Shown here in pieces: positions 32,155 through 46,845 of a stretch of 64,000 nucleotides of DNA. This stretch comes from an uncultured Bacteroidaceae bacterium (GTDB lineage: Bacteria; Bacillota; Clostridia; Christensenellales; CAG-917), in the NCBI GenBank assembly GCA_964550635.1, contig CAZJZV010000008.1, positions 691 through 64,690 of the forward strand, in the 5' to 3' direction. The notes under the pieces were generated by a model. The model was given only the letters and a program-made list of their open reading frames with translations. It searched no databases and was not told the DNA's origin. The position numbers and the translations under genes were made by a program. Position 1 is the first letter of the stretch. Each line of letters begins with the position of its first letter.

Positions 32155-32796
32155 ATGGCAAAGAAAACCCCAAGGATCGAACGTAAGGCAGTTTATGAAA
32201 CCAACGTCGTTACGTTGTGTCGCGACCGTTATAAAGACAAACTCGACGAAGTCAATGCCGAACTCGAACGCGATAATGCTCAATTGAAAGTTTGTTTGGA
32301 GAAAGGTAAACTCTCAACCGACGAAGAAGAGAAGCGCGCGCTCGCACGCGAAGTGAAGAAGATTCGCGATAAAATCGAAATATTCAAAGGCAATGAATTT
32401 ATGTTCCGCGAAACCGTCGATCTTTTCGACAAGTTGGTTGATATCTTGGATTCGTTGATGATGAGAGAACAATATAGAATCATCGTCCGCAAAATTCCCG
32501 AGAAGAAATTGCCCGATCTCGTCAGAGATCTAAAGCGCGAAAAACTTAACGAACTCTTGATGGAACTCATCAGAGTGCTTGACGTGGCAAACAAAAAGTC
32601 AATGCTTTCGTCAAAAGAATTGAAAGAACAATTGCATACACGCGATATCGAAAATGCAAATTTCATGGAACGCAATGCACCCAACGAGGATGACATTGAC
32701 GCAATCATGGCGGAATTTGAATCGGATACCGCAACCGTTACGGCGACCGTTGTGAATGAAACGAGCAACGTGAACAACGTCGTAAATAATAACTAA
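32155..32796 (+). CDS. ESCRT-III superfamily-like (Snf7/PspA-like) helical protein, paralogue 1
   Basis: 213 aa and predicted all-helical. It has a basic N-terminus (MAKKTPRIERK) and an acidic C-terminus with NEDDIDAIMAEFESD. That tail resembles the Snf7-family acidic tail and the E. coli PspA segment LDEAMARFESFE (recalled from memory). AAGGAG RBS. Confidence 0.45.
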   Translation: MAKKTPRIERKAVYETNVVTLCRDRYKDKLDEVNAELERDNAQLKVCLEKGKLSTDEEEKRALAREVKKIRDKIEIFKGNEFMFRETVDLFDKLVDILDSLMMREQYRIIVRKIPEKKLPDLVRDLKREKLNELLMELIRVLDVANKKSMLSSKELKEQLHTRDIENANFMERNAPNEDDIDAIMAEFESDTATVTATVVNETSNVNNVVNNN

Positions 32797-32822
32797 AAAA
32801 TAATTAAGTGGAGGAATACACT

Positions 32823-33458
32823 ATGAGCAAAATCGACAAAGAACTCAAAAAAGAAGAAACCATCGCAAAGAGTTTGGCTACCATCATCGAGGCACGCGAA
32901 TCCGTTGAAAGCCTTGTGAAACAATACGACGAGTGGATCGACCAAGCGTTTGAACTCGGCGAAACGGAATATAGCGATCAACTCATCGCAGACCAAGTCG
33001 AGCTCGAAGAATTTTCGCGCAATCTTTCGTTCGTCGAAGTGAGAATTCGCGAATCCGCAGTGAGCGCAAGAGCTTTCGGAAAACTCAAATGCTTGCCCAA
33101 CGCGATGAAGTGCTGCAAGGATTTGTCCAGTGGTCTCAATCTTCCCAAAATCGGAAAGGATATGGTTGCATTCAGAAAATCTCTTGATAATGCACGCGCA
33201 TCTCTCAAAGATTTGAGAAGCGAAATGTCCGCCGACGACAAGTTCAGTAAGCTTGTGTTGAACGAAAAACTCGGCAGGAAGATTGATTCCAAAACGGCTC
33301 AAGCAATCGAACAAAAGAAACTTGCTCGCGAAGGACGCCTTGCACAAAAAGTTAGCAACAATTCGGTTGCTCCCGTCGCTTCCGGTATCGGAGCGGACGT
33401 TTCCGCAGGTATCGACGCTATCACCGCAATGATAGACGAAGAAAACAAGAAAAACTAA
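32823..33458 (+). CDS. ESCRT-III-like (CHMP2/Vps2-like) helical protein, paralogue 2
   Basis: 211 aa. ATG 32823 follows GGAGG. The segment AMKCCKDLSSGLNLPKIGKDMVAFRKSLDNA parallels human CHMP2A AMKGVTKAMGTMNRQLKLPQIQKIMMEFERQAE (recalled from memory). The C-terminal GIDAITAMIDEE helix is similar to the tail of paralogue 1. Confidence 0.55.
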   Translation: MSKIDKELKKEETIAKSLATIIEARESVESLVKQYDEWIDQAFELGETEYSDQLIADQVELEEFSRNLSFVEVRIRESAVSARAFGKLKCLPNAMKCCKDLSSGLNLPKIGKDMVAFRKSLDNARASLKDLRSEMSADDKFSKLVLNEKLGRKIDSKTAQAIEQKKLAREGRLAQKVSNNSVAPVASGIGADVSAGIDAITAMIDEENKKN

Positions 33459-33478
33459 CCTGACGAGGAAGAACAAAG

Positions 33479-34753
33479 ATGGCAGATTCAATCAAAGAGT
33501 CCTACGTAGCACTCATTGAAATCTATAATCAACATCGCACTTTGGGGGACAGTGCATCCGCTTTGCGCATTGCAAACGAGATCATCAAAATCGCAAGATC
33601 TCAATGCGCAAGAGACGATCTTCCGAAGCAAGTGAAAGATTACTATGCGTCAAGTTCCACGCCCATCAAAGAGTGGGTTGCGGGCATGAACGTTGCGCCG
33701 TTGCAACAAAAGTCGAATGCAAACAATCCGTCCGAAGACAAAATAAAGTCTACGGACTGGTTCGGCGCGGATATACCCAAACTCACTTTGCGCGACGTAG
33801 CAGGATTGCAACCGCTCAAAGACGAGTTCACCGTGAACGTCTTGGCGCCTATGTCTCCAAAATATGCTCCTATCTATCGGAAGTATAGAAAGGAAGTCGG
33901 CTTGCAAATCTTGATGTACGGCCCTCCGGGATGCGGAAAAACGCATATCGTCAAGTGCTTGGCGGGTACTCTCGGTTGCAAAATCGCGGTCGTTCAAGTG
34001 AAAGACGTCATGGCGAATCTCGTCGGCGACGGCGCGAAAATCATAGCGGAGATATTCGAACAAGCCAAAAAGTTCGACAAATGTATCATATTCTTCGATG
34101 AAATCGATGCAATCGCCGCAAGCCGTGACGACGACGAAAGTCGCCATACGAAAGAGCAGTTGACGACGTTGCTCACGAATATGGACGGGTTCACTTCATC
34201 CACGAAACCCAATCAAATTCGTATCATCATCGCGGCAACCAATCGTCCGTGGGTACTCGATAGCGCGGTTAAGCGCGGTGGACGTTTCGACACTCAAATC
34301 TACGTCCCGCTCCCCGATTTCGAGGCGCGTGCAAGACTTATCGAGCTTGCTCTCGGGAAGGACGAGAAAGTCAAAGACCGTATCGACGTCCCCTGCGACG
34401 ACGACGTGACTATTGAATGGCTTGCAGAGCGATTTGAGGGCTATTCGGGCGGCGATATTAAGGCGATCTGCAAACAGATTATCAACAGACCGCTCAAACG
34501 TGAAATCGACGCATTGCGCACAACCGGTCAGGTTGTGAGCGATCGTATAACTCGGGAAGATTGCGAGTTCGTGATGAAACGCTACATCAATTCTATCACC
34601 GACGAAATGTTGTTCAGTTACGACGCCTACGCCGCCAATATGGACCTTGCAGAATATCTTGCGCTTTACGAGCAAAAGGCAAGAGAAGACGAGGCAAACG
34701 GTATTCCGCTTCCTGCGCACGTGCAACGTTGGCTCGACGATATGGACAACTAA
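33479..34753 (+). CDS. Vps4-like (meiotic-clade) AAA ATPase with N-terminal MIT-like helical domain
   Basis: Walker A GPPGCGKT and Walker B [37 protein letters not shown] is nearly identical in pattern to Vps4 [37 protein letters not shown] is also present. The N-terminal roughly 75 aa is helical with no TM. Confidence 0.8.
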   Translation: [424 protein letters not shown]

Positions 34754-34763
34754 AACGTACCTG

Positions 34764-35705
34764 ATGGGAACGAACTTTGACCAAAAACTGAAAAACGCTT
34801 ACGTTGCGGCAAAATCGTACGCGACGCGCGGAGATGCAGTAAACGCACGAAATTGCGTGCTTGAATGCATGGAGTCTTTGCTTGAATTGTACAAAATCAC
34901 AAAGAGTCCGTCCGAGCGTGCAAAGATATACGCCAAAGTTGTCGAGTTCAAAAATATTTCTTCCGAACTCTACAAGAACGGCGTGAACCAAAAGGTTAAA
35001 GCGTGGTTTTGCATTGCGGAAACCGCCAAGAAAGAAGCGCCGACCGAAAATAAGCGCGGTGCGACTTCGGACGATATGCTTTGGACGGAAAAGGTTTTTC
35101 GCAACAACTGTTCGTCCGTAATGTCAATCCGTTGCTCACTGCGGAACGGTGAGTGCTTTAGCGGGACCGGATTTAGCATATCCGAAAACGGCTATCTGTT
35201 GACGAATCACCATGTGGTGTACGACGAAAACAACGATGAGTATTGCAAAATCATATACGCTACTCCGTTCGGACAGTCGAAATCGTATCAAATAGAATTG
35301 ATCGACGCGGACGAAAAGAACGACGTTGCGCTTTGCAAATACGATCCGACCGAGATGGACGGAGTTACGGCAGTCAAACGCATTGACGACTACGAAAGAG
35401 TGTCTCAAGGTATGGGAGTGTTGTCGATAGGCAACGGACTTTCCATGGGACTTGCTCCGATAAGCGGTATAATCAAGTTCACGAAAGGGACTCTCGTCAC
35501 CACCGTACCGTTGAATAAGGGCGACTCCGGTTCGCCGGTGTTCAACCCCGACGGCGAATGTATCGGCATCAATTGCTCCACTACCGCAGAAGTTATTCGC
35601 GGAAATCACGTATGTGAAGCAGTGGGCATATCCAACGCAACGCCTATGTGCACCATCGATAAACTGCTTGATAAGTGGTGCGCAAAATACGACATACAAT
35701 TATGA
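34764..35705 (+). CDS. MIT-like domain fused to a trypsin-fold (S1/HtrA-like) serine protease
   Basis: The catalytic triad is readable: His in LLTNHHVV, Asp in NDVALCKY, Ser in NKGDSGSPVF. The N-terminal 75 aa (AKSYATRGDAVNARNCVLECMESLLELYKITKSPSERAKIYAKVVEFKNISSELYK) parallels helices 1-3 of the Vps4 MIT domain. Confidence 0.7.
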   Translation: MGTNFDQKLKNAYVAAKSYATRGDAVNARNCVLECMESLLELYKITKSPSERAKIYAKVVEFKNISSELYKNGVNQKVKAWFCIAETAKKEAPTENKRGATSDDMLWTEKVFRNNCSSVMSIRCSLRNGECFSGTGFSISENGYLLTNHHVVYDENNDEYCKIIYATPFGQSKSYQIELIDADEKNDVALCKYDPTEMDGVTAVKRIDDYERVSQGMGVLSIGNGLSMGLAPISGIIKFTKGTLVTTVPLNKGDSGSPVFNPDGECIGINCSTTAEVIRGNHVCEAVGISNATPMCTIDKLLDKWCAKYDIQL

Positions 35706-35712
35706 GGTTAAT

Positions 35713-37308
35713 ATGATACTAGAAAAAATCCGCGACCTATACGTTCAGGCGCGCGAACTAGCAAAAACGGGTAATAATTCCAATAGCCTTATCGTGATAA
35801 ACAATATCACGGAAATTTCTAACTACGTAAAGGAACTTTATGAGCAGAGTACCAATATGGAGCGCATAAAGTGCAGAGCGCAATACGAGGGTTTTGACAA
35901 CGTCGTCAATATCATCAAAGTTTGCGGACTAAAGGATGAAAGAGTAAGGGCGTTTTTCGGGCTTGCACCGTCATCCGCGCACGCTCCGTCGTTCTCCGAT
36001 ATATTGAACGGCAACGTTCCTCAAACACCTCAAAATGCGGGTTCTAACACGGCAAAACCGAGTGCAAACGGTGTTGGCGCACCTGTCGCAAAAAGCAAAA
36101 AGCCCGCCAATCAACCGAAAATCGGCGCCGTTGCATCGGGAGCTGATAGCACTTTCGACGACGGTAAAATAAATCCTAAATACACCCCCGATAGCCTTGA
36201 CGACTTCATAGGTCAAGAGCGTGTGGTTAGGGAACTGAAACGCGAAATCAAAATCGCGAAAACAAACGGACGTCATAACCTTGACAATATCCTGTTGTTC
36301 GGCAATCCCGGACTCGGGAAAACCACTCTTATGAAATTGATTGCGGCGGAGTTGGGCGCGGAATACGAGCCTTTCGACTGCTCGCAAATGGGCAACACGC
36401 AACAAACGTTGAAGAAGATGCAAAGCTTTCTCATCCGCGTGTCCAAAATCAATAAGCCCGTCGTCATCGCATTCGATGAAATACATATGTTGAGTCGCGA
36501 ATTGCAGTCCGCACTTTTGACATTGCTCAACGATAGAGTGTTCGTGTCGCCGCCCGACTTGAACGGTAATATCAAACGAATACCGATTGAAAACTTCACT
36601 TTCATCGGCGCGACGACCAACGACGAAGGCGTCCTGCCCACGATAAAGAACCGTTGCTTGGGACTCACGTTCCAACTTGTCGACTACACGAACGACGAGC
36701 TCAAACGTATATATAGGAATAAGGTCGCGTCCAAGGGCTTGACCATATCCGACGACGCAATCGAAGTTTGTATTCCGAGAAGTCGCGGTGCAATCCGCTA
36801 CGTCAATTCCTTTGTCGACGGACTCGATAAGGCGCTCTATAACGACGACGGTATGCGTACCTCCTTCCATATCGACCTCGACGTCGCTCTCGCATACTTT
36901 GAGAAGAAAGGCATCGACCCCATGGGGCTCACCGATAAGGACCTTGAAATCCTGCATACCCTCGAAGAAACGGACGGTATGGGCGTGGATGTTCTCGCCG
37001 CAAGAGTCGGCTTGGATTCGAAAAAGTATCAATCAGAGTACGAAAAATATCTCATCAAGATAGGGTTCATCGACGTGAACGGCAAAGGTCGCACTCTTAC
37101 GGATAGAGCATTGCGCTATCTCAACGCAACGGGCGGGGATGATGACGGCGAAGTCGCACCCGATTGCCCCGACGAAACCGACAACAACGGCGGTTGCGAC
37201 GATTCTACCATCGACACAACCCCCGAAACGGCCGAACAAGATCAACCAGAAACCTCTTCGGACAACGACGTCCCGAAAGACATCATCGACGACCTATTCG
37301 GCGACTAA
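35713..37308 (+). CDS. MIT-like domain fused to a RuvB-type AAA+ ATPase with an acidic C-terminal tail
   Basis: FIGQERVVRELKREIKIAK...ILLFGNPGLGKTTL (compare RuvB FIGQE...LL.GPPGLGKTTLA), Walker B VIAFDEIHML and sensor FIGATTN. The winged-helix C-domain (GLTDKDLEILHTLEE...YEKYLIKIGFIDVNGKGRTLTDRALRYL) follows the RuvB domain III pattern. The N-terminal 70 aa is helical and MIT-like. The tail ends ...DVPKDIIDDLFGD. Confidence 0.7.
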   Translation: MILEKIRDLYVQARELAKTGNNSNSLIVINNITEISNYVKELYEQSTNMERIKCRAQYEGFDNVVNIIKVCGLKDERVRAFFGLAPSSAHAPSFSDILNGNVPQTPQNAGSNTAKPSANGVGAPVAKSKKPANQPKIGAVASGADSTFDDGKINPKYTPDSLDDFIGQERVVRELKREIKIAKTNGRHNLDNILLFGNPGLGKTTLMKLIAAELGAEYEPFDCSQMGNTQQTLKKMQSFLIRVSKINKPVVIAFDEIHMLSRELQSALLTLLNDRVFVSPPDLNGNIKRIPIENFTFIGATTNDEGVLPTIKNRCLGLTFQLVDYTNDELKRIYRNKVASKGLTISDDAIEVCIPRSRGAIRYVNSFVDGLDKALYNDDGMRTSFHIDLDVALAYFEKKGIDPMGLTDKDLEILHTLEETDGMGVDVLAARVGLDSKKYQSEYEKYLIKIGFIDVNGKGRTLTDRALRYLNATGGDDDGEVAPDCPDETDNNGGCDDSTIDTTPETAEQDQPETSSDNDVPKDIIDDLFGD

Positions 37309-37331
37309 AAAACCAAAGGGAGAGATTACAA

Positions 37332-38147
37332 ATGAAACAAACTAAAATCAGAACAAAAATCGACTTGTTGAAAGCACTCGACAACCTTACAAAAGTCGAT
37401 AACGAGTATTTGCCTGTCAATTCAGACAAGTATAAAAAAGTGAAAGAACACAAAGATCTGATACAACTTATCGCTACCGGTTTGCCAAAAACGGCGGATA
37501 TAAGCGATTTGAGTTCGCTTGACTTCGGCGAGCAGTCGCTTGAAGAATACGTAAAAAACAACAGCGTCGAAACAGTCGAAAAAAGGCTCATCTCGATTGA
37601 GAGCGACATAAACACAAGAACGTCGCAATATGCCAATACGTATTTTGAAAAAAAAGAAGCTGATAAAAAGAAAGAAGACGTTGTAATTTTTGGCGAAGAT
37701 CTTATTGAGGTTTATGATACAATGCAAAGTCGGAACCATAAGAGGCTCATTGCCTTTGCCGTAGTTTTCATAGTATCCTCTGTAATTTTCGCGGCGGCGG
37801 CAATATGCTTGTTGATTGATTCAATAAAATGTTTTTTGGGAGAGAGCGGAGTGACGATTTGTTCCGCTATTTGCACCGTCGCAGGTGTGGCAGATTTTAT
37901 AAACGGTGGAGCGTTTTCTGTATATGAACGCATTGATGACAAGAAAAAGACCAAGGTCAACAATGAAGCCGCAAAATCATTAAAAACTAAAAACCCCGCT
38001 ATTGCTTTTAGGGAAGTAAAGAATAGTATTATTATTGACGGCAAAGCGTGCGGTGTTATTATTAATAAAACGGTGAACAATGGAGGGGAAAATACAAATG
38101 AAAATAATGAAAAAACTGGGCAAGATATTTCCACAACGAAAGAATAA
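37332..38147 (+). CDS. membrane protein with a central 2-TM hairpin, function unknown
   Basis: ATG 37332 follows AAGGGAGAG. 271 aa with a helical N-domain, then LIAFAVVFIVSSVIFAAAAICLLI and VTICSAICTVAGVADFINGGAF. No family recognised. Confidence 0.55.
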   Translation: MKQTKIRTKIDLLKALDNLTKVDNEYLPVNSDKYKKVKEHKDLIQLIATGLPKTADISDLSSLDFGEQSLEEYVKNNSVETVEKRLISIESDINTRTSQYANTYFEKKEADKKKEDVVIFGEDLIEVYDTMQSRNHKRLIAFAVVFIVSSVIFAAAAICLLIDSIKCFLGESGVTICSAICTVAGVADFINGGAFSVYERIDDKKKTKVNNEAAKSLKTKNPAIAFREVKNSIIIDGKACGVIINKTVNNGGENTNENNEKTGQDISTTKE

Positions 38148-39597
38148 GAAGACGGAAGTTGAGTCTGCACAACAGGATAAAAATCTAGTTGGCGGTGAAG
38201 ATAACGGCATCACTTTGAATGCGGTAGACACAGCGCAAACGAATGACGACTACTCTTGTCTTCGTCAGGTTGAAGATTATCAAGACGACCAATCAATAAG
38301 CGAAAGCGATAAAAAAACTGACGGCGTCGCAGATTTTTCTATAGTCGATGACTCTACTGCTACTTTGGATGATGAACAACAAACTGATAGAAATACACAA
38401 GCAGCAAATAGCAGGTCGAAAGAAAACAACAAAGAGAACTCGTCATCACAGCCCAGCAATAATTCTAATGGTGACATTACTAATAGTGTTGTAATAGGGG
38501 GCAACCTCTTTGGATTGGCGCTGAATATTGTTCGAAATGGTGTTTCTAAACTGTGGGTAAAAAATAAAATTAAAGAGTCGGATAAGAAGAACGAAGTTGA
38601 GCGTGCGAAGCTTGAGACTCGAATAGATAAATATTTGCTTATTAAAATTGCGGAGAGCAAAGAAGAAATAATAAAAGAAATCAAGGGTGAATTAGATCAG
38701 CAAATAAAACACCATAATGATTTTGAGTCGGCAATTAAAGCGACGGTTGCTAATCTGTCGGATGCTTGGGGAAGATTTTCTGACGACATAATAAAACGAC
38801 TTGAAAAAGTCGAAAATTTGGATTCTCAAGTTGCTAACGCAAGTAAAATCTTAGAAGAGCACAAAGTAAGAATTGATGCATTAGAAGGTCGGCAAATAGA
38901 ATTCATGGAATATGCAATGGATTATATTAATTCATTGAAAAATTCTTTGGAAGAAGTCAGCAATAAAACTAACGAACTAGAAGAGGAAGTAAGACGATTA
39001 AAAGAAGAACTGGAACGGATAAAAAAACTTATCTCGTCGCAAAAGCTCGACCCTCGCTATGAAATTTGCCCTCGATGCGGATCATACCATTCGTTTGACA
39101 CATACAAAAGAGGTGAAGAAGGAGAAAAACCATATTACATATGTGCAGTCTGTGGCCGAAAAGATAATGATGACGAAGATAATATTCAAATTATAAAGGA
39201 CGATAAGAGTATAAATTCGGAACTTCACGTTCTAGCATCATCGGTATTGGATGATTCGATGAACAAACATGGTTTAACGAGTATAAAACGCGTGTTAGTC
39301 AAAAATAATATACAAAAAATTGGCACATCACAAGGTGGGAGCGCAATTAACAAATATTATGGAAAATTGGAGGTTTTTTCTCTCAGCAATCCAAATGAGA
39401 AAGGTGAACCACATTATACATTGGGCAAAGGGCTGTTTGATTTTAGCAATAATCGGAAATGGATAAAACTATATGGAATGAAGTATGTGAAAACAATTGA
39501 AGACGGATGTTTTAAGGGCATAGAAAGAGGAAAAAGAGAAGCATTTTGGAAAAAATACGGCTTCACACTTAAGCGCGAAGATAAGTATTTTTGCTGA
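38098..39597 (+). CDS. coiled-coil protein with zinc-ribbon (CxxC...CxxC) and C-terminal globular domain, function unknown
   Basis: ATG 38098 lies 9 nt after GGAGGGG and overlaps the previous gene by about 50 nt. It has an acidic, low-complexity N-region and a long heptad-like stretch (LEEVSNKTNELEEEVRRLKEELERIKKL). The zinc ribbon reads CPRCGSYH...CAVCGRKD. The C-terminus is faintly LRR_5/BspA-like. Confidence 0.5.
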   Translation: MKIMKKLGKIFPQRKNKKTEVESAQQDKNLVGGEDNGITLNAVDTAQTNDDYSCLRQVEDYQDDQSISESDKKTDGVADFSIVDDSTATLDDEQQTDRNTQAANSRSKENNKENSSSQPSNNSNGDITNSVVIGGNLFGLALNIVRNGVSKLWVKNKIKESDKKNEVERAKLETRIDKYLLIKIAESKEEIIKEIKGELDQQIKHHNDFESAIKATVANLSDAWGRFSDDIIKRLEKVENLDSQVANASKILEEHKVRIDALEGRQIEFMEYAMDYINSLKNSLEEVSNKTNELEEEVRRLKEELERIKKLISSQKLDPRYEICPRCGSYHSFDTYKRGEEGEKPYYICAVCGRKDNDDEDNIQIIKDDKSINSELHVLASSVLDDSMNKHGLTSIKRVLVKNNIQKIGTSQGGSAINKYYGKLEVFSLSNPNEKGEPHYTLGKGLFDFSNNRKWIKLYGMKYVKTIEDGCFKGIERGKREAFWKKYGFTLKREDKYFC

Positions 39598-39610
39598 TTA
39601 AGGAGGAAAT

Positions 39611-40246
39611 ATGGATTTGTTGACAATAGTTTTGATAGTGGGACTATCGTGTATGACAATGGCGTTTGTATGTGCCTTATGTGTGTGTGTTAAGCAGCAT
39701 TGGAGTTTCGAATGCGAACAAAACGCATTGGCATCTGCACTCAATAATAAGGCTCGGCAAAAAGATTGCGCCAAAGGTGTTGCTCATTTGACTGCTGATG
39801 AATTGATCGCGCAAAAAAACGAAGAAATTGCATCTCTCAATGATATGATAGCAAAATATGAAGAAGAACATAGGCGCAACGTCGAGGTGGAAAAGAAGCT
39901 AGAAAAGCACTACGGCGATGCAGGCATTTCTTTAAGCAATTTGATTGGATATACCGAAGACTGTAGAAAAACGCTTAAACATGATTATATTGAAAGAGGA
40001 GTAGAATATTCTTGTGATGATATTGATTATGTTTTAAAAGCAATTTTGAGAGAAGAAATTTGTATTGTTGAAAGATTGCCCAATTATTATCCACAAATAG
40101 GGGAGAAAATTGATTGCGCGTGCATGGAAGAAGTCGGGGAGAAAAATTATGGTTACATAACTCAAATTGTGGAACCCGGGAAAAAATGTGGAACTTTCGT
40201 GGTTCGCAAAGCAAAAGTAAAAACAGAAAGGAGAATACAAGAATGA
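39611..40246 (+). CDS. N-terminally membrane-anchored coiled-coil protein with GrpE-like C-terminal domain
   Basis: TM helix LLTIVLIVGLSCMTMAFVCALCVCV. Coiled coil EEIASLNDMIAKYEEEHRRNVEVEKKLEK. The C-terminus (IGEKIDCACMEEVGEKNYGYITQIVEPGKKCGTFVVRKAKVKTE) parallels the GrpE beta-domain (VGKPFDP.LHQAVMQVE...V.E.LQKGYKL.DRVIRPSMVKV). It lies immediately upstream of, and overlaps, the Hsp70-like gene. Confidence 0.4.
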   Translation: MDLLTIVLIVGLSCMTMAFVCALCVCVKQHWSFECEQNALASALNNKARQKDCAKGVAHLTADELIAQKNEEIASLNDMIAKYEEEHRRNVEVEKKLEKHYGDAGISLSNLIGYTEDCRKTLKHDYIERGVEYSCDDIDYVLKAILREEICIVERLPNYYPQIGEKIDCACMEEVGEKNYGYITQIVEPGKKCGTFVVRKAKVKTERRIQE

Positions 40247-42039
40247 AACAAATTATTACGATAGGCATCGACATTGGCACTCAATACTGCAGTGCAGGTT
40301 ATGTTTTGGATAATGAATATCATCAAATTGATTTTGCCAACTGTCCGTATGGAATTCCGACAACGGTATGTTTAAGAAGCGCCGATGCCAATGAAAAAGA
40401 AAACATTGTAGAGCAGCATGATGGCAAAAAATACGTAGTGGAATCAGGCACAAATGCGGTTGATAAAATAGATACAGACTATTCTAATGGGAGCGTATAT
40501 ATATTATCGCCTTCACAATCGATAAAAACGCTCATGAGAAAAAATGTGAAACAAGTAAAGTTATTTAATAATATCACGTCACTAGATGAAGATTTCGAAA
40601 CTAAAGAATTAGTATATAACTTTATTTGGCATGTAGTAGATAAAATAATAGATAAATTCCGCGCTAATGGAATTAATTTAAACGATTATAAATTAGTCGT
40701 CAATATGGGCTATCCGGGGAAAGATGAGTTAAATTCCAACGAAGAAGAAAACTACAAGAATGAGATTGCACGCATAGTAGGCAGTGCGTTTAATTTAAAG
40801 GTAGACGGAGCAAATGTAGAGGTTAAAGCTATAAGCGAAGCAGCGCTAGCGGCAGATTTGCTAAAAAATATCTGCTTGGAAAATAATGGATCGCCGAAAC
40901 AAAAAGTTTGTACAATTGACGTGGGTGCTGGAACTACCGATTTGGCTTTTTTGAAATTGGATGAAAAAACACACAAATATTTGTGTGAAGGTCAAACGAC
41001 ATGCAATTTTGGGGGGAAAAGCATCGATCTAGTTCTCGGGGATCAAAGCCTGGAATGGGAACGAGAAAATGGAGGCATTCATAAAGGCGAATTAAATCCC
41101 GCTCACCTTCGTCCGGATACTATAGCAAAACGCAAAAAATGGATTTTCACCGGAAATGCCGAAGATGGTAAGATAACTGGTTATGATAATATATATCTCA
41201 GTAAGAAAATTGGTGAGTATATTGAAAACGATACTATTGTTACAGAAGAACGTGATTTGGGCACTTTAAAAACCAAATTTGAAAAATTTATAGAAGAAAT
41301 TACAATAGAAGTAAAAAATAATGAGGCAGACGTCGCATTTGTTTTATTGGGCAATTCCAGTCATTTGTCTTATATCAGAGATATGATTGAGGAAACAGTG
41401 AAGCGTAAATTGAGCAATCTAATGGTGAAGGTAGACATTTCATTTTTGGAAGATGCATTAAAGAACACGCCGTTGAATTATATAAACAATTCAAATTTTA
41501 TTGCCAGAGCGGCTGCCGGTTATGAAAATGATATGATAACTACTAATTGTTATGCATTTAGTTATTATAACAAAGAAAAGAATGAAAATGGTTATAAAAT
41601 AATTTCGAGCAAGGGAAATCTAAAAGGATCTTATTATGACACCGAGGCGGACTATATGGTTAATAAGGAAAACAACGAATGTGATTTCGAGGTTGGCGGA
41701 ACAGTGTATAGCATTAAAATACTAGAAAGCGAAGCAATGCAAAAAGCAAATGTTGGCAAGGATTTTTATTATTTAAAGGGGAGCGTACAACCTAAAAACG
41801 TAGACATTGATAAAGAAAATATAAAATATTATAAGCCAACACTAAAGGGAAAGGGCTTGAGATACAACGTAGGGTGCAGTATTGACGATCAGGGAAAATT
41901 AAGTATATGCGTCTTCGCTAATGATAATGACAAAAAGACAAGCGAGGAGAGAAAGAATTTTTTGGAAAAAGCGATTAAAACGGCAGACGCACACGGTAAT
42001 CTTAGCCGTTGGTTCGAATTAAAAAATTACAAAGTATAA
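40243..42039 (+). CDS. divergent Hsp70/actin-fold ATPase (DnaK-like nucleotide-binding domain plus unrelated beta-rich C-terminal domain)
   Basis: Phosphate-1 motif ITIGIDIGTQYCSAG and phosphate-2 motif CTIDVGAGTTDLAFLKL. 598 aa. Its ATG overlaps the upstream stop (ATGA). It is Asn/Lys/Ile-rich. Confidence 0.65.
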   Translation: MKQIITIGIDIGTQYCSAGYVLDNEYHQIDFANCPYGIPTTVCLRSADANEKENIVEQHDGKKYVVESGTNAVDKIDTDYSNGSVYILSPSQSIKTLMRKNVKQVKLFNNITSLDEDFETKELVYNFIWHVVDKIIDKFRANGINLNDYKLVVNMGYPGKDELNSNEEENYKNEIARIVGSAFNLKVDGANVEVKAISEAALAADLLKNICLENNGSPKQKVCTIDVGAGTTDLAFLKLDEKTHKYLCEGQTTCNFGGKSIDLVLGDQSLEWERENGGIHKGELNPAHLRPDTIAKRKKWIFTGNAEDGKITGYDNIYLSKKIGEYIENDTIVTEERDLGTLKTKFEKFIEEITIEVKNNEADVAFVLLGNSSHLSYIRDMIEETVKRKLSNLMVKVDISFLEDALKNTPLNYINNSNFIARAAAGYENDMITTNCYAFSYYNKEKNENGYKIISSKGNLKGSYYDTEADYMVNKENNECDFEVGGTVYSIKILESEAMQKANVGKDFYYLKGSVQPKNVDIDKENIKYYKPTLKGKGLRYNVGCSIDDQGKLSICVFANDNDKKTSEERKNFLEKAIKTADAHGNLSRWFELKNYKV

Positions 42040-42062
42040 TATATGTGTTTAATTAAGCAAAA

Positions 42063-42088: not shown

Positions 42089-42136
42089 TGGGGGGAAATG
42101 GTGGGGGAAAGGGGAATCCTTTTCCTGTTTTTTTGT

Positions 42137-42189: not shown

Positions 42190-45100
42190 TTATTCGTTGT
42201 AGTCCTCGTATTTGTCGCGTTTTTCGGTGATTGCTTCGGTGTTGGTTTCGGCAAGCACTTTGTCTTTCGCGGGTTTGCGGTACTTCTTGACGAAGAACAC
42301 GATTACGACGGCGATGGTTGCGACTGCGATGATGATCGAAGGAATCATCCAAGCAAGGTTGACGAGATTGAAGGAACTTGCTTCGGGAGTTTCGGTGGTG
42401 TCGTCGACTTTGGTTTCGGTGTCACCGGTTTGGGATGCGGGTTTGACTTCGCGCACTTTGACGGTGGAAGCAAGGGTGCCTGCATCTGCTTGCGCCTTCA
42501 TATTGTCGTAGACTTCTTCGGTCACGGTTTCGAAGGTGATAGCGTCGAACATTGCGTAACCGCTTGAGAGTTTGGTTTCGTCGTCCGCGTCGTAGTCACC
42601 GAGTTGGAGTTTGAGAGTTGCGGAAGTGACCTTATCGTCGAGAGTCTTGACGTAGAAGGTGTATTCCGTCCAGCCTTCAGCCTTGATACCTTCGAAGACG
42701 AGCGGATTTTCGCTATCGTTTGCGGAGCCGAGATAGAACTCAACGCTTGCGCCTGCGCCGGTTGCTTTGAACGTACGCACGTACACGCTTACCTTATAGA
42801 AGGTTTCCGCATTGAGAGTGTAACTGTTGCTGGTGTAGAGATAAGAGCTGGGCGCGGTGTTGTTGATGACAAGGAAGTTCTTTCCGATGACGGAAGAAAC
42901 GTCGTTGCCGTTCGCATCCTTCATTGAGAGCAAATCGCTTGCGGAGATGTAGTTTGCCTTCATATCCGCGTACATTTCGCGTTTTTGGAGAATGGTTTCG
43001 ATTTCCGCATCGGTCTTGCCGGGGTAGGTTGCCTTTGCGCTATCGATGTCGCTTTGCTCGATCTTGTAGTTGCTTTGCTTATAGGTCTTGCCGAAGAGAG
43101 AGACGGTTTGTCCCATTTCGCTCAAGATGTCCTTGTAGAGATCGTCTTCAAGGTCTGCGGAGTCGATATCGTGTTTGGGAAGTGCGCTTGCATCCGCATA
43201 GATGACGCCGCCCTTGGTGTCGGAAGCGGATTGTTCGGTGTCTGCGGATCCCGACCAACCGGAAGGAGTGGAGAGTTCGCTTCTGGACGCTACGTTATCG
43301 GAAGCGGTGTCGAAACCGTCGGTAAGGTAGGTGATCTTTCTATCGACGTTATTGTTGAGAGAAAGCGCGTTGAACTCATCGTCGGTCATGGTGGTGAGAG
43401 TGACGTTGTCGAACAAGACGATACCGGAAGACGCTTCGTCCGCGACGTCGCCGAGATCGCCGGAGATTGCTTGGTCGTAGCCAATGCCGAGGCGGAGTTT
43501 CAAGGAAGAAACGCTGGTCAAACCGACTTGGATATAGAAGGTGTATTCAGTCCAATCGGTGGAACCGACGGTCTTGACTACGAAGTTGGTGTTTTCTGCG
43601 ATACTACCGCTCGAACCGCCGGTGAGATAGATACTGAAAGTGGTTGCTTCCAAGGTCTTAACCCACACGCTGAGTTTGTAGTTGTTGTTTGCGGAAGCGG
43701 AGAAGGTGCCGGACGCAAAGGAGCGGGTGTACTTCTTGCCGTTGAGTCCTGCAAACGCAAGGACGTAAGGTGCGCCGATGCGTTCCGCATTCTCGAAGTA
43801 GGTGTCGTCTTCCGCACCGTAGAGAGTGTTGAAGGACGTTGCGACGGAGTCGCCGAACAACGCTTTGATTTGTTCGCTTGCGTCGTAGTAGTTGTCGTTG
43901 TCCGCTTGTTTGTCGAGTTTTACGATACCTGCAACGAGATTTGCATCGTCCTTGTAGGTTTCTTTGTAGGTGTTGGTGTCGTCCGTGTCGTCGCCGTTGG
44001 GCTTGTAGGTGGAGTCGTTGATGGTCCAGTTGGAAGGCACGCCTGCGTAGTTATTCTTCGCAAGGTCGCCTTGAGCGACGTTACCGTCCGTCCACTTGGT
44101 GTCCGAAACGTTGAAGTTGGAGAAACTGCCGTTGGTGAAGGACGGGGAGGTGGATGCCGCGGAAGACGCAAGGCTTACTGCCTTGACGGTGTTGCCGGTG
44201 GAGACGTCCGCATAATCGTCGTATTCGATTTCGGTCATGCTGATATTGGACACGAACGCTACGCCGTTTGCAAGGGTGGAAGAGGACCAACGATTGCCGG
44301 TGCCGTAGGTGATGCGCAAAGAGAGGTTTTGTGCTTCGAGTTCGTTGCCTTTCACGTAGAAGGAGTATTCCTTCCAAGTGGTGGTTTCGACGTTGTCATC
44401 GTCGTAGGTGGAAGTGTTGATGAGAGTGAAGGAAGACTTGTCGTTGCCTTCGCCGTCAACGAGACAGATATAAACGCCGGAAGTGGACTTGATACCTACC
44501 GTCTTAACCCAGAGAGAGATGCGATAAGTGCCGTTCTTGGAGACCGCAAATTCGTCGGTTTCAAAGAGGAAGTAGGAGTCCGCCGCGTTGGACTTGAACA
44601 TAAGGGCGCGTTCGCTTTCGATTGCGTAAGGGGTGCCCGGGTGTTCGACGCCGTATTGAGTGAAGTTTGCATCTGCGGCAAGGCTGACTACGCCTGCGGT
44701 AACGTCGACGACGGGAAGAGTATCGTCGTTGCCGATTTCGTCGAGAAGGCTACTTGCAGAGAAGCCTGCGGGGGTGCCGAGAGTGTTGTTGTCGTAATCC
44801 GCCGCATTGTCCGAAACGTTTTGGAAGTTTGCGGAGATTGCGCTACCGTCGAAAAGGTTGACGGTGGAGAGGTCCACTTTTGCGTATCTTGCGGAGCTAT
44901 CGCTTTCAAGGTCGACTTCGTAGTCGGTGAGTGCGCCTACGTTCGTCCACGCGTCTTCGGTGATTTCTGCAAGGTTGACTTCGTCAAAGAATGCCCAACC
45001 GGTTGCGAAAGTGCCGTTGGATTTGTAAGTGGTTTGGTTTTCGTTGAATTTGGTTGCGCTCTCGTATTCGGTATAGGTCACCGTGGAGTTGTCGTAGGTG

Positions 45101-46629: not shown

Positions 46630-46845
46630 ACTTTCCTTTATGCCTAATTGTGATGCGAATTTTATTTGCACGCGTTGTCCGCGCGTTATATATAATTATA
46701 GGCTATGATATGATATAACAAAATCAATAATTTGGCAAACGTATTTCATATTTTCTTGCAAATTAAAGAAAATATAATTATGAACAGCGGACTTTTTGTG
46801 GTTGAATACCCGTCGAAATTCAAAAAGAGCAACGAAAAGAGCGGT

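What the first reader, a model, noticed from the sequence alone, without database searches (positions are those of the whole stretch)
39611..42039. Translationally coupled, membrane-anchored GrpE-like protein plus divergent Hsp70-like ATPase, with no J-domain partner
Seen: a 211-aa protein has an N-terminal TM helix and a coiled coil. Its C-terminal segment (IGEKIDCACMEEVGEKNYGYITQIVEPGKKCGTFVVRKAKVKTE) follows the GrpE beta-domain pattern. Its stop overlaps (ATGA) the start of a 598-aa protein with Hsp70/actin phosphate-1 (GIDIGTQYCSAG) and phosphate-2 (IDVGAGTTDLAF) motifs. The C-terminal roughly 200 aa of that protein do not look like a DnaK substrate-binding domain. I found no HPD (J-domain) motif in any of the nine operon proteins. 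Established: GrpE is the nucleotide-exchange factor of DnaK and is normally soluble, and Hsp70 cycles normally need a J-protein. Inference: this is a dedicated, membrane-localised Hsp70-like machine, possibly a sensor or remodeller for the ESCRT-III-like polymer or the two preceding membrane/coiled-coil proteins.
Basis: partly seen in the sequence, partly recalled or inferred. Interest (0 to 1): 0.65.

Follow-up and report, generated by a model that had tools for sequence, protein, structure and literature searches.

The report
Membrane-anchored GrpE-like protein with divergent Hsp70
The last two genes of a nine-gene operon in an uncultured gut bacterium encode a very divergent Hsp70-type ATPase and a membrane-anchored partner whose tail resembles the Hsp70 nucleotide-exchange factor GrpE; the pair lies in a cassette that differs strongly between strains, which points to a role in recognising something, not in general protein folding.

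Summary
Both ORFs, the ATGA overlap, the N-terminal TM helix, the phosphate-1 and phosphate-2 motifs and the absence of HPD are all present.

The 598-aa protein has an Hsp70-type nucleotide-binding domain. All top 50 Foldseek hits are Hsp70s, hhalign against DnaK gives P=1.4e-25, and every catalytic residue is kept. It still falls below every Pfam model. Its last ~170 aa show no DnaK substrate-binding-domain signal.

The 211-aa protein is only weakly GrpE-like. Pfam and PDB searches find nothing. Profile-profile comparison gives P=1e-4, column shuffles never reach the observed score, and in a reciprocal search real GrpEs outrank 2,448 decoy ORFs. Its fold was not confirmed.

A TM protein with this tail sits directly upstream of the Hsp70-like gene in nine divergent loci. 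Three further lineages of the operon also end in a small helical protein plus an Hsp70-like ATPase.

Within one species the flanks and genes 1-5 are 92-100% identical, but genes 7-9 fall to 36-71%. Relatives sit beside integrases, T4SS coupling proteins and defence candidates.

I read the pair as a dedicated Hsp70/exchange-factor module that acts as the variable part of an undescribed, mobile-element-linked system. Its function is inferred. The upstream ESCRT-III/MIT labels could not be verified.

The parts
39611..40246 (+). g8: 211-aa membrane-anchored GrpE-like protein. It has a TM helix at aa 1-28, a long helix at aa 62-129, a helix at aa 135-155, and a conserved C-terminal domain at aa ~156-211.
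   Evidence: ORF. Hydrophobic segment. AF2 secondary structure. Homologues. GrpE similarity.
40076..40243 (+). GrpE-like C-terminal domain of g8 (LPNYYPQIGEKIDCACMEEVGEK..GKKCGTFVVRKAKVKTERRIQE). It is nearly invariant among alleles that otherwise differ.
   Evidence: Alignments A2 and A3. hhalign on the C-terminus alone gives P=3.3e-4. The shuffle null reaches at most 17 against an observed score of 25.7. GrpEs take 4 of the top 5 non-family hits among 2,448 decoy ORFs.
40243..42039 (+). g9: 598-aa divergent Hsp70-type ATPase. The nucleotide-binding domain spans aa 1-~428. An unassigned beta-rich plus helical C-terminal domain spans aa ~430-598.
   Evidence: AF2 model. All top 50 Foldseek hits are Hsp70s. 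hhalign against the DnaK NBD gives P=1.4e-25. Catalytic residue map. The profile search reaches canonical DnaK.
40243..40246 (+). ATGA stop/start overlap between g8 and g9. AGGAGA lies at 40229-40234.
   Evidence: Sequence. The same 4-nt overlap is seen in L001, L019 and L025.
38516..42048 (.). Strain-hypervariable, low-GC cassette running from the rest of g7 through g8 and g9. It contains short conserved islands at 39415-39862, 40068-40373, 40901-41019 and 41458-41661.
   Evidence: blastn breakpoints against same-species loci. Per-gene identities. GC of 0.35-0.37 against ~0.47 elsewhere.
38080..39597 (+). g7: 505-aa protein with a coiled coil, a Zn-ribbon and a C-terminal domain. It co-varies with g8 and g9 and is present in every related locus.
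   Evidence: Zn-ribbon-bearing counterparts in L029, L030 and L032.
37332..38147 (+). g6: 271-aa membrane protein with a hydrophobic segment at aa 136-170.
   Evidence: Homologues in L020 and L004.
35716..37308 (+). g5: RuvB-like AAA+ ATPase with a winged helix and an extra N-terminal helical domain. It is the most constant companion of the pair.
   Evidence: Pfam RuvB_N 6.9e-21 and RuvB_C 7e-13. Also present in L020, L002, L021, L023, L029, L030 and L032.
34767..35705 (+). g4: trypsin-like serine protease with an N-terminal helical extension.
   Evidence: Pfam Trypsin_2, 2.9e-17.
33479..34753 (+). g3: classic-clade AAA ATPase (similar to Cdc48, Vps4, CdvC and IetA) with an N-terminal helical extension.
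   Evidence: Pfam AAA 1.8e-36. PADLOC IetA 7e-41. NCBIfam CdvC 7.9e-40 and IteA 1.7e-33, both far below their cut-offs. PDB p97 1e-68.
32155..33458 (+). g1 (213 aa) and g2 (216 aa): small helical proteins with acidic C-terminal tails.
   Evidence: No Pfam or PDB hit, even with an 18-sequence profile. Conserved at the head of the operon in L025, L027, L029, L030 and L032.
42104..42126 (+). Terminator-like hairpin followed by a T-run, 65 nt after the g9 stop. This is the likely end of the operon.
38035..38062 (+). Promoter-like site (TTGACG-16-TATTAT with a TG extension) just upstream of g7. It could be an internal promoter for the variable cassette.
   Evidence: This is a consensus match only.

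Best explanation
SHOWN. g9 is a highly divergent member of the Hsp70 superfamily. Its nucleotide-binding domain is complete and keeps all catalytic residues. Its ~170-aa C-terminal domain is not recognisably a DnaK substrate-binding domain. g8 is a single-pass membrane protein (N-terminus out, C-terminus in). Its cytoplasmic part is laid out like GrpE: a long helix, a shorter helix and a ~55-aa C-terminal domain. That domain shows weak but reproducible profile similarity to the GrpE C-terminal domain. The two genes are translationally coupled and stay adjacent in nine divergent loci. With g7 they form a cassette that is hypervariable between strains of one species. The cassette is attached to a conserved enzymatic module: AAA ATPase, trypsin-like protease and RuvB-like ATPase.

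INFERRED. A g8 dimer holds g9 at the inner face of the membrane. It uses its GrpE-like domain to release ADP, which resets g9 in place of a general GrpE. No J-protein is encoded, so ATP hydrolysis by g9 is probably triggered by a dedicated ligand. The ligand could be the co-varying coiled-coil/Zn-ribbon protein g7, or a foreign (phage or mobile-element) or envelope-derived protein bound by the variable surfaces and C-terminal domain of g9. The nucleotide state of g9 would then act as the switch that engages the conserved enzymes. In the distant relatives g8 carries a large extracellular repeat domain, which fits signalling across the membrane. The overall system is most likely a mobile, diversifying conflict system (defence or exclusion), not a housekeeping chaperone.
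For: Hsp70 identity of g9:
- The AF2 nucleotide-binding domain has pLDDT 80-90.
- The top 50 Foldseek PDB hits are all DnaK, BiP, Ssz1 or Hsp110, with E down to 2e-13.
- hhalign of the family against the DnaK NBD gives probability 99.7% and P=1.4e-25.
- The family profile reaches canonical DnaK homologues in a 1.84-billion-protein library at E~4e-9.
- D10, K95, E199, D226, T231, D233 and G370 align with DnaK D8, K70, E171, D194, T199, D201 and G341. They are invariant in 50 sequences.

GrpE-likeness of g8:
- hhalign against 11 GrpEs is collinear over 123 columns with P=1e-4.
- The C-terminal domain alone gives P=3.3e-4.
- None of 150 column shuffles reached the observed scores.
- A GrpE HMM scores family members at per-sequence E of 5e-6 to 1e-4.
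- In the reciprocal search, GrpEs are 4 of the top 5 non-family hits among 2,448 decoy ORFs.

Conserved pairing:
- A TM protein with the LP[DN]Y.P...GK.CG..V[RK]KA.V tail lies directly upstream of the Hsp70-like gene in the window, L001, L025, L027, L019/20, L002, L021, L004 and L022.

System membership:
- The operon lineages L029, L030 and L032 also end in a small helical protein plus an Hsp70-like ATPase.

Hypervariability:
- Flanks and g1-g5 are 92-100% identical between strains, while g7, g8 and g9 drop to 56/61/38%, 44/66/36% and 67/86/71%.
- The breakpoints lie at 38516 and 42048, and the cassette has low GC.

Mobile-element and defence context:
- VirD4/TraG and ClpP are neighbours.
- An integrase and a NusG-like gene are neighbours.
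- A PDC-M26A hit of 4.7e-49 lies next door in L032.
- Hsp70-like proteins occur in the defence candidate PDC-M61 and in CoCoNuT systems (PMC11090510).
Against: - No Pfam, NCBIfam or PDB sequence search reports GrpE for g8.
- AF2 could not fold the g8 C-terminal domain (pLDDT below 50), and Foldseek on that model was uninformative.
- The helical part of g8 alone shows no GrpE signal (P=0.69).
- In L029 and L032 the protein upstream of the Hsp70-like gene lacks the GrpE-like tail. In L023 it is missing altogether. An exchange factor may therefore not be essential to the system.
- No expression or functional data exist, and no RNA run holds the locus.
- The defence role rests on context and variability only. 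No PADLOC or PHROG model matches g8, and g9 matches only PDC-M61B weakly (5.5e-5).
- g9 has no relative in sequenced phages, plasmids, IMG/VR or GTDB representative genomes.
Confidence: 0.45

Rival explanations
1. The pair is a dedicated chaperone that assembles or disassembles the polymer formed by g1 and g2. The model is chloroplast HSP70B/cpHsc70 with its GrpE homologue CGE1, which remodels VIPP1 oligomers.
For: g1 and g2 head the operon in every lineage that ends in an Hsp70-like gene. Hsp70 control of an ESCRT-III-superfamily polymer has a precedent (PMC12798727, listed). Membrane anchoring of g8 would put the chaperone where such polymers act.
Against: The ESCRT-III identity of g1 and g2 found no support in Pfam or PDB profile searches. 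Close relatives of the pair occur without g1-g4 in L002, L021 and L004. A remodeller of a 96-99% conserved polymer would not be expected to be the hypervariable part of the locus.
Confidence: 0.2
2. g8 is only a membrane tether or adaptor, and its GrpE resemblance is convergent or spurious. g9 is an Hsp70-fold ATPase that cycles without an exchange factor or uses the host GrpE.
For: Standard HMM searches are negative. The AF2 confidence for the domain is low. Partners in L029 and L032 lack the tail. The similarity rests mainly on ~45 residues.
Against: The similarity is collinear and placed at the C-terminus, as in GrpE. It beats every shuffle. It selects real GrpEs over 2,448 decoys. It also sits next to an Hsp70-type gene, which is the one context where GrpE homology is expected beforehand. 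The tail is the most conserved part of g8.
Confidence: 0.2
3. g9 is a cytoskeletal or segregation ATPase of the actin/ParM/MreB type that serves a mobile element, and is not a chaperone-type Hsp70.
For: Relatives lie near T4SS coupling proteins. Pfam MreB_Mbl gives weak hits on many more distant sequences retrieved by the family profile.
Against: All top 50 structural matches are Hsp70s, with no actin, ParM or MreB among them. The Hsp70-specific catalytic Lys (DnaK K70) is invariant. The profile neighbours are members of Pfam HSP70, on which MreB_Mbl cross-hits.
Confidence: 0.05
4. The cassette belongs to a secretion, conjugation or surface-display apparatus of a mobile element. The Hsp70-like motor would pull or hold substrates at the membrane, as mtHsp70 does at the TIM23 import channel.
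For: g8 is membrane-anchored. Distant g8 homologues have a large extracellular repeat plus coiled-coil domain. VirD4/TraG are neighbours. g6 is a membrane protein.
Against: In the window, L029 and L030 no T4SS genes are nearby. The protease, AAA and RuvB-like set is not typical of secretion systems.
Confidence: 0.1

Closest known systems
DnaK-GrpE (bacterial Hsp70 and its nucleotide-exchange factor; structure 1DKG, recalled from memory; 4ANI appears)
   Same: The nucleotide-binding domain is Hsp70-type with all catalytic residues. The partner has a long helix, a second helix and a C-terminal domain that match the GrpE profile collinearly. The genes are adjacent, as grpE and dnaK are in many operons (seen).
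   Different: g9 falls below every Pfam and NCBIfam Hsp70 threshold and has no detectable substrate-binding domain. g8 has a TM anchor, falls below the GrpE model thresholds and has a Cys-rich tail (GK.CG). No DnaJ is present. The pair is hypervariable and rare, not universal.
Chloroplast HSP70B/cpHsc70 with CGE1 (a GrpE homologue) acting on VIPP1 (PMC12798727)
   Same: An Hsp70 with a GrpE-type factor is functionally tied to a membrane-remodelling polymer of the ESCRT-III superfamily.
   Different: Those are canonical Hsp70 and GrpE proteins that work with a J-protein (CDJ2, recalled from memory). Here the polymer identity is unverified, and the pair also occurs without g1 and g2.
Hsp70-like NBD/SBD proteins of CoCoNuT type III systems (CnuD/CnuCD; PMC11090510) and PADLOC candidate PDC-M61B
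   Same: They are divergent Hsp70-like ATPases built into multi-gene prokaryotic conflict systems, together with coiled-coil proteins and AAA/GTPase motors. PDC-M61B matches g9 weakly (5.5e-5) and matches 30 of 50 related sequences.
   Different: CnuD has degenerate catalytic motifs and is predicted to bind RNA, whereas g9 keeps all catalytic residues. No McrBC-type genes are present. No GrpE-like partner is described for those systems.
Membrane-tethered Hsp70 machines: Tim44-mtHsp70-Mge1 at the mitochondrial import channel, and E. coli DjlA, a membrane-anchored J-protein (both recalled from memory)
   Same: An Hsp70 cycle is localised to a membrane by anchoring a co-factor.
   Different: In those systems the anchor is a J-protein or Tim44, and the GrpE-type factor is soluble. 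Here the exchange-factor-like protein itself carries the TM helix.
IetAS (AAA ATPase plus serine protease anti-plasmid/anti-phage pair)
   Same: g3 matches the PADLOC IetA models (7e-41), and a serine protease gene follows it.
   Different: The NCBIfam IteA score is 116 against a cut-off of 510. IetS is a subtilisin-type protease (recalled from memory), whereas g4 is trypsin-like. This bears on the context, not on the pair itself.

Membership tests
Hsp70 (PF00012 / DnaK family) | Actin-fold nucleotide-binding domain of the Hsp70 type | tested here: met
   All top 50 Foldseek hits are Hsp70s, with E down to 2e-13. hhalign against the DnaK NBD gives P=1.4e-25 over 327 columns.
Hsp70 (PF00012 / DnaK family) | Catalytic and phosphate-binding residues (DnaK D8, K70, E171, D194, T199, D201, G341) | tested here: met
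   g9 D10, K95, E199, D226, T231, D233 and G370 align with them. They are invariant in 50 family and neighbouring sequences.
Hsp70 (PF00012 / DnaK family) | Passes the curated family model (Pfam gathering score or NCBIfam cut-off) | tested here: not met
   No PF00012 hit at E<=0.1. The only NCBIfam trace is PRK11678 at E=0.01, 14.7 bits against a cut-off of 331.
Hsp70 (PF00012 / DnaK family) | C-terminal substrate-binding domain (beta-sandwich plus helical lid) | tested here: inconclusive
   hhalign of residues 400-598 against the DnaK SBD gives P=0.32. The AF2 model is beta-rich and then helical but has pLDDT below 50.
Hsp70 (PF00012 / DnaK family) | Cognate J-domain protein | tested here: not met
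   No HPD in any of the nine operon proteins and no DnaJ Pfam hit. A J-protein encoded elsewhere in the host genome cannot be excluded.
GrpE (PF01025) | Passes the curated family model | tested here: not met
   No GrpE hit for g8 or six homologues, even at E<=10. No GrpE chain appears in the PDB profile search.
GrpE (PF01025) | Sequence-profile similarity to the GrpE C-terminal domain, at the C-terminus and collinear with the helical region | tested here: met
   hhalign gives P=1e-4 for the full length and 3.3e-4 for the C-terminus. None of 150 shuffles reached the observed score. The GrpE HMM gives per-sequence E of 5e-6 to 1e-4. GrpEs rank directly after true family members among 2,448 decoys.
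GrpE (PF01025) | Long dimerising helix followed by a helical bundle | tested here: inconclusive
   AF2 predicts helices at 62-129 and 135-155 with pLDDT 72-94. The helical part alone has no GrpE profile signal (P=0.69). Dimerisation was not tested.
GrpE (PF01025) | Beta-sheet fold of the C-terminal domain | tested here: inconclusive
   Residues 161-211 have pLDDT below 50 with an 8-sequence alignment. Foldseek was uninformative.
GrpE (PF01025) | Binds the Hsp70 NBD and accelerates ADP release | not testable with these tools
   This needs complex prediction or biochemistry. The indirect support is conserved adjacency and translational coupling.
ESCRT-III / Vps4 system (context genes g1-g3) | g1 and g2 recognisable as Snf7, ESCRT-III or PspA family members | tested here: not met
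   No Snf7 or PspA hit for g1 or g2 singly or with an 18-sequence profile, in Pfam or PDB.
ESCRT-III / Vps4 system (context genes g1-g3) | [quoted passage not shown] | tested here: inconclusive
   g3 is a classic-clade AAA. CdvC scores 7.9e-40, far below its cut-off (137 against 650). Cdc48, PAN and FtsH score as well or better. No MIT Pfam hit was found.

The most novel reading that the evidence does not exclude
g7, g8 and g9 form the exchangeable recognition module of a previously undescribed, mobile, multi-gene bacterial immune or exclusion system. In this module a membrane-anchored GrpE-like factor and a J-independent Hsp70-type ATPase act as an ATP-gated sensor. On binding a foreign or envelope-derived ligand, the sensor engages a conserved effector set: an AAA unfoldase, a trypsin-like protease and a RuvB-like ATPase, all docked on a polymer formed by g1 and g2. 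This would be the first Hsp70/exchange-factor pair used as an immune sensor, and the first membrane-anchored GrpE-type protein.
Probability: 0.3. Interest if true: 0.85.

Novelty: new variant of a known kind. Interest (0 to 1): 0.62.

Why it matters
Hsp70 and GrpE are among the best-understood protein machines, and GrpE-type factors are described as soluble housekeeping proteins. This pair would show the Hsp70 cycle turned into a dedicated, membrane-bound module with no J-protein, whose surfaces diversify between strains of one gut species. It would add a new way to build a molecular switch in prokaryotic conflict or mobile-element systems, alongside STAND, AAA+ and GTPase switches.

It also marks a conserved nine- to twelve-gene operon that I could not find described in the searchable literature. 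The family is invisible to Pfam, PADLOC and PHROGs. It is absent from the reference genomes, plasmids and phages searched, so it would be missed by routine annotation.

Tried and rejected
- Standard family searches for GrpE (Pfam, NCBIfam, PADLOC, PHROGs, and PDB by phmmer and hmmsearch) found nothing for g8. I therefore built my own GrpE profile from 11 annotated grpE genes.
- AF2 of g8 with 8 sequences left the key domain unfolded, and Foldseek on it gave only coiled-coil noise.
No complex model of the pair and no models of g1, g2 or the N-terminal domains of g3-g5 could be made.
- The actin/MreB/ParM reading of g9 is rejected.
- A DnaK-like substrate-binding domain in g9 has no signal.
- ESCRT-III identity of g2 was tested with an 18-sequence profile against PDB and Pfam, with no signal.
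- Searches for relatives in GTDB representative genomes, JGI metagenomes, IMG/VR, PLSDB plasmids and INPHARED phages returned nothing.
- No RNA-seq run holds the locus, and no Rfam element lies in the window.
- The literature searches did not find this system described. The CoCoNuT and Menshen papers were read and concern different systems.


Full report
**1. The observation**

The + strand carries a compact nine-gene operon from 32155 to 42039. Its last two ORFs are the ones the finding describes.
- g8 runs from 39611 to 40246 (211 aa) and is preceded by AAGGAGG.
- g9 starts at the ATG at 40243 (598 aa, stop at 42039). Its ATG overlaps the g8 stop as ATGA, and AGGAGA lies 8 nt upstream.
- A terminator-like hairpin with a T-run follows at 42104-42126.
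- g8 has one strongly hydrophobic segment at residues 1-28.
- AlphaFold2 predicts a helix at residues 3-52 that contains this hydrophobic segment, a long helix at 62-129 and a helix at 135-155. Residues 161-211 are not confidently folded.
- No HPD tripeptide occurs in any of the nine proteins, and no DnaJ domain is detected.

**2. The 598-aa protein is an Hsp70-type ATPase, but a very distant one**

Pfam, NCBIfam and PDB sequence searches do not recognise it. The only traces are YegD-type PRK11678 at E=0.01 and human HSPA6 at E=0.95. It has only 11 relatives among 5.8 billion clustered proteins.

A 12-sequence alignment gave an AF2 model with pLDDT mostly 75-93, with short dips, through residue ~430. 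The top 50 Foldseek matches in the PDB are all Hsp70s (DnaK, BiP, Ssz1, mortalin, Hsp110), with E down to 2e-13. No actin, MreB, ParM, FtsA or sugar kinase is among them.

A profile of the family was searched against 1.84 billion representatives. It found 25 proteins below 1e-30, and the sampled ones have no Pfam domain. The next tier consists of Pfam HSP70 members. This tier includes canonical DnaK homologues, for example P0071 at ~4e-9 in the profile search and 4e-191 against E. coli DnaK.

Profile-profile comparison with a DnaK alignment gives probability 99.7% and P=1.4e-25 over the whole nucleotide-binding domain. g9 D10, K95, E199, D226, T231, D233 and G370 align with DnaK D8, K70, E171, D194, T199, D201 and G341. 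They are invariant in 50 sequences, so the protein should hydrolyse ATP.

The domain ends with a conserved NNSNFIARAAAGYEN motif that I place, by eye, at the end of the DnaK nucleotide-binding domain. The remaining ~170 residues are beta-rich and then helical in the model but have pLDDT below 50. They show no profile similarity to the DnaK substrate-binding domain (P=0.32). Whether it is a much-diverged substrate-binding domain cannot be decided.

**3. The 211-aa protein is GrpE-like, weakly but reproducibly**

Standard searches are negative. I extracted 11 annotated GrpE proteins from bacteria and one archaeon and compared profiles.
- The cytoplasmic part of the g8 family aligns collinearly with GrpE over 123 columns at P=1e-4.
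- With four distant homologues added, the C-terminal ~55 residues alone give P=3.3e-4. The alignment is G-x-x-[IF]-D...M/H-E/Q...V-x-x-V-x-x-G-[KY]-x-x-G-x-x-V-[RK]-x-A-x-V.
- The helical part alone gives no signal (P=0.69).
- 150 column shuffles of the GrpE alignment reached at most 18.0 and 17.0, against observed scores of 28.2 and 25.7.
- A GrpE HMM run without filters scores family members at per-sequence E of 5e-6 to 1e-4.
- In the reciprocal test, HMMs of the g8 family were searched against 2,448 real ORFs from the window and all fetched loci plus the 11 GrpEs. After the true family members, GrpEs took 4 of the next 5 places with the C-terminal model and 4 of the next 10 with the full model.

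This similarity sits beside an Hsp70-type gene, which is the one place where GrpE homology is expected beforehand. I rate GrpE-type relationship or function at about 0.7-0.75. The fold itself was not obtained, so this remains inference.

**4. The pairing is conserved**

A TM protein ending in LP[DN]Y.P...GK.CG..V[RK]KA.V lies directly upstream of the Hsp70-like gene in the window and in L001, L025/26, L027, L019/20, L002/3, L021, L004-6 and L022. The ATPases in these loci are only 24-71% identical to g9.

The 4-nt overlap recurs in L001, L019 and L025. In the distant loci the g8 homologue is 434-485 aa. It has a signal-anchor, extracellular repeats, an extracellular coiled coil and a second TM helix, followed by the same cytoplasmic helix-plus-tail unit. 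This architecture suggests communication across the membrane. One locus, L023, has the g7-like gene directly before the ATPase and no g8.

**5. Link to the upstream genes**

Same-species loci (L025, L027) carry the identical nine-gene order. L020, from another genomic context, has protease, RuvB-like, TM protein, coiled-coil protein, GrpE-like and Hsp70-like genes.

Homologues of g2 led to three further operon lineages: L029, L030 and L032/34/35. All have g1-like, g2-like, AAA, trypsin-like protease and RuvB-like genes, then some small genes and a large Zn-ribbon/coiled-coil protein. All end in a small helical protein followed by an Hsp70-like ATPase of 540-780 aa.
- In L030 the partner (366 aa) again aligns weakly with GrpE (P~1e-3).
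- In L029 the partner is a TM plus coiled-coil protein without the tail.
- In L032 the partner is a 145-aa helical protein.
An Hsp70-type ATPase with a small helical partner is therefore an integral terminal component of this operon type. The GrpE-like tail is specific to the window's family and possibly to L030.

Conversely, L002, L021 and L004 keep only the RuvB-like gene (absent in L004), the g7-like gene and the pair. They lie beside VirD4/TraG coupling proteins and ClpP. The pair is thus not strictly tied to g1-g4.

**6. The ESCRT-III and MIT labels**

I could not verify them.
- g1 and g2 have no hit in Pfam or PDB, even with an 18-sequence g2 profile.
- g3 is a classic-clade AAA ATPase that scores similarly against Cdc48, PAN, FtsH, CdvC and IetA models, always far below the family cut-offs.
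- By eye, the g2 segment LNLPKIGKDMVAFRKSL and the acidic tails of g1 and g2 recall ESCRT-III. That is a recollection, not a test.
- Reviews state that Vps4-like ATPases appear absent from bacteria, or are known only as sporadic transfers (PMC7619361; PMC11237479). The question deserves its own structural test.

**7. A hypervariable cassette**

L025, L027 and L001 come from the same species as the window. Their flanking genes are 95-100% identical at protein level, and g1-g5 are 92-99% identical. In contrast, g7, g8 and g9 are 67/86/71%, 56/61/38% and 44/66/36% identical.

At DNA level, identity to L027 is 97.5% up to 38516 and 97.9% from 42048. In between only short islands align:
- the end of g7 and the start of g8;
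- the g8 tail together with the first 43 codons of g9;
- the phosphate-2 region of g9;
- the NNSNF region of g9.
The cassette has 35-37% GC against ~47% around it. A promoter-like site lies just before g7.

Within g9, the variable parts are residues 30-210 and 270-390, which I map roughly to subdomains IB and IIB, and the C-terminal tail. Within g8, the variable part is the central helical region. From memory of the DnaK-GrpE complex, IB and IIB are the GrpE contact areas, as is the loop near DnaK residues 28-33. The counterpart of that loop lies in the conserved island shared with the g8 tail. This fits a co-evolving interface but does not prove one.

**8. Context**

- The locus occurs in gut and faecal metagenomes.
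- L032-type operons are preceded by a phage-type integrase and a NusG-like gene. Their neighbour matches the PADLOC defence candidate PDC-M26A at 4.7e-49.
- L030 is preceded by an SNF2-type helicase with weak DrmD-like hits.
- Decayed versions exist. In L027 the ATPase gene is split by a frameshift in an A13 tract. L033 has a deletion that fuses the AAA and RuvB-like genes, and L036 has a recombinase insertion.
- Hsp70-like proteins are already known as parts of conflict systems: CoCoNuT CnuD (PMC11090510) and PDC-M61B.
Rapid allelic turnover, mobility, decay and the defence neighbourhood together favour a conflict system. No experiment supports this.

**9. Mechanism proposed**

Shown: an ATPase-competent Hsp70-type domain, a membrane-anchored partner with a GrpE-like tail, translational coupling, conserved adjacency and cassette hypervariability.

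Inferred: a g8 dimer tethers g9 under the membrane and resets it by ADP release. Without a J-protein, hydrolysis is triggered by a dedicated ligand. The ligand could be g7, or a foreign or envelope-derived protein bound by the variable surfaces or the C-terminal domain. The nucleotide state of g9 then gates the conserved AAA, protease and RuvB-like module.

It remains possible. It is weakened because the pair occurs without g1-g4, and because the pair is the variable part of the locus while g1 and g2 are conserved.

**10. Verdict**

The pair is a new variant of the Hsp70/GrpE theme, embedded in an operon type I could not find described. Interest is moderate to high. It rests on good fold and family evidence and on striking population-level variability, but function remains inferred.

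Noticed in passing
window 38516-42048, compared with L025, L027 and L001: Within one species the 3' third of the operon (g7-g9) is replaced by alleles that are 36-71% identical, while the flanks and g1-g5 stay 92-100% identical. The block has 35-37% GC against ~47% in the surrounding sequence.
   Followed up: yes
L027 10940-11000: The Hsp70-like gene of this strain is split into 108-aa and 451-aa ORFs by a frameshift inside a run of 13 A. This could be phase variation, decay or an assembly error. P0007 (365 aa) is another truncated form.
   Followed up: partly
L002 6271-7719, L004 6628-7932, L021 7276-8733, L022 2-1387: Distant g8 homologues are 434-485 aa (L022's is cut by the contig end). 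Each has a signal-anchor, tandem extracellular repeats (weak Big_4-type hit), an extracellular coiled coil and a second TM helix. The same cytoplasmic GrpE-like unit follows, so the family looks like a transmembrane receptor.
   Followed up: partly
window 33479-35705 (g3, g4): An AAA ATPase that matches the PADLOC IetA models (7e-41) is followed by a serine protease. This recalls the IetAS defence pair, but the NCBIfam IteA score is far below its cut-off and the protease is trypsin-like.
   Followed up: partly
window 32155-33458 (g1, g2) and the N-termini of g3, g4 and g5: The ESCRT-III-like and MIT-like labels from the first stage get no support from Pfam or PDB profile searches. Reviews say Vps4-like ATPases appear absent from bacteria, so a fold prediction of these five regions would be worthwhile in its own right.
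   Followed up: partly
L033 10664-11710; L036 11527-14889: There are degraded versions of the related operon. L033 has a deletion that fuses the AAA and RuvB-like genes and loses the protease and the Hsp70-like gene. L036 has a serine recombinase inserted after a truncated large Zn-ribbon protein.
   Followed up: no
L032 2688-9301: The related operon is preceded by a 929-aa protein that matches the PADLOC defence candidate PDC-M26A (4.7e-49), a phage-type integrase and a NusG-like gene.
   Followed up: partly
window 42190-46671 (- strand): A 1,493-aa protein with an N-terminal signal-like segment, repetitive Thr/Ser/Asn-rich domains and a C-terminal TM anchor lies convergent to the operon. It is 98-99.5% conserved between strains. 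A 1,206-aa ORF on the opposite strand (42985-46605) is probably spurious.
   Followed up: no
window 38035-38062: A promoter-like site (TTGACG, 16 nt, TATTAT, with a TG extension) lies inside the end of g6, just upstream of g7. It could drive the variable cassette separately.
   Followed up: no
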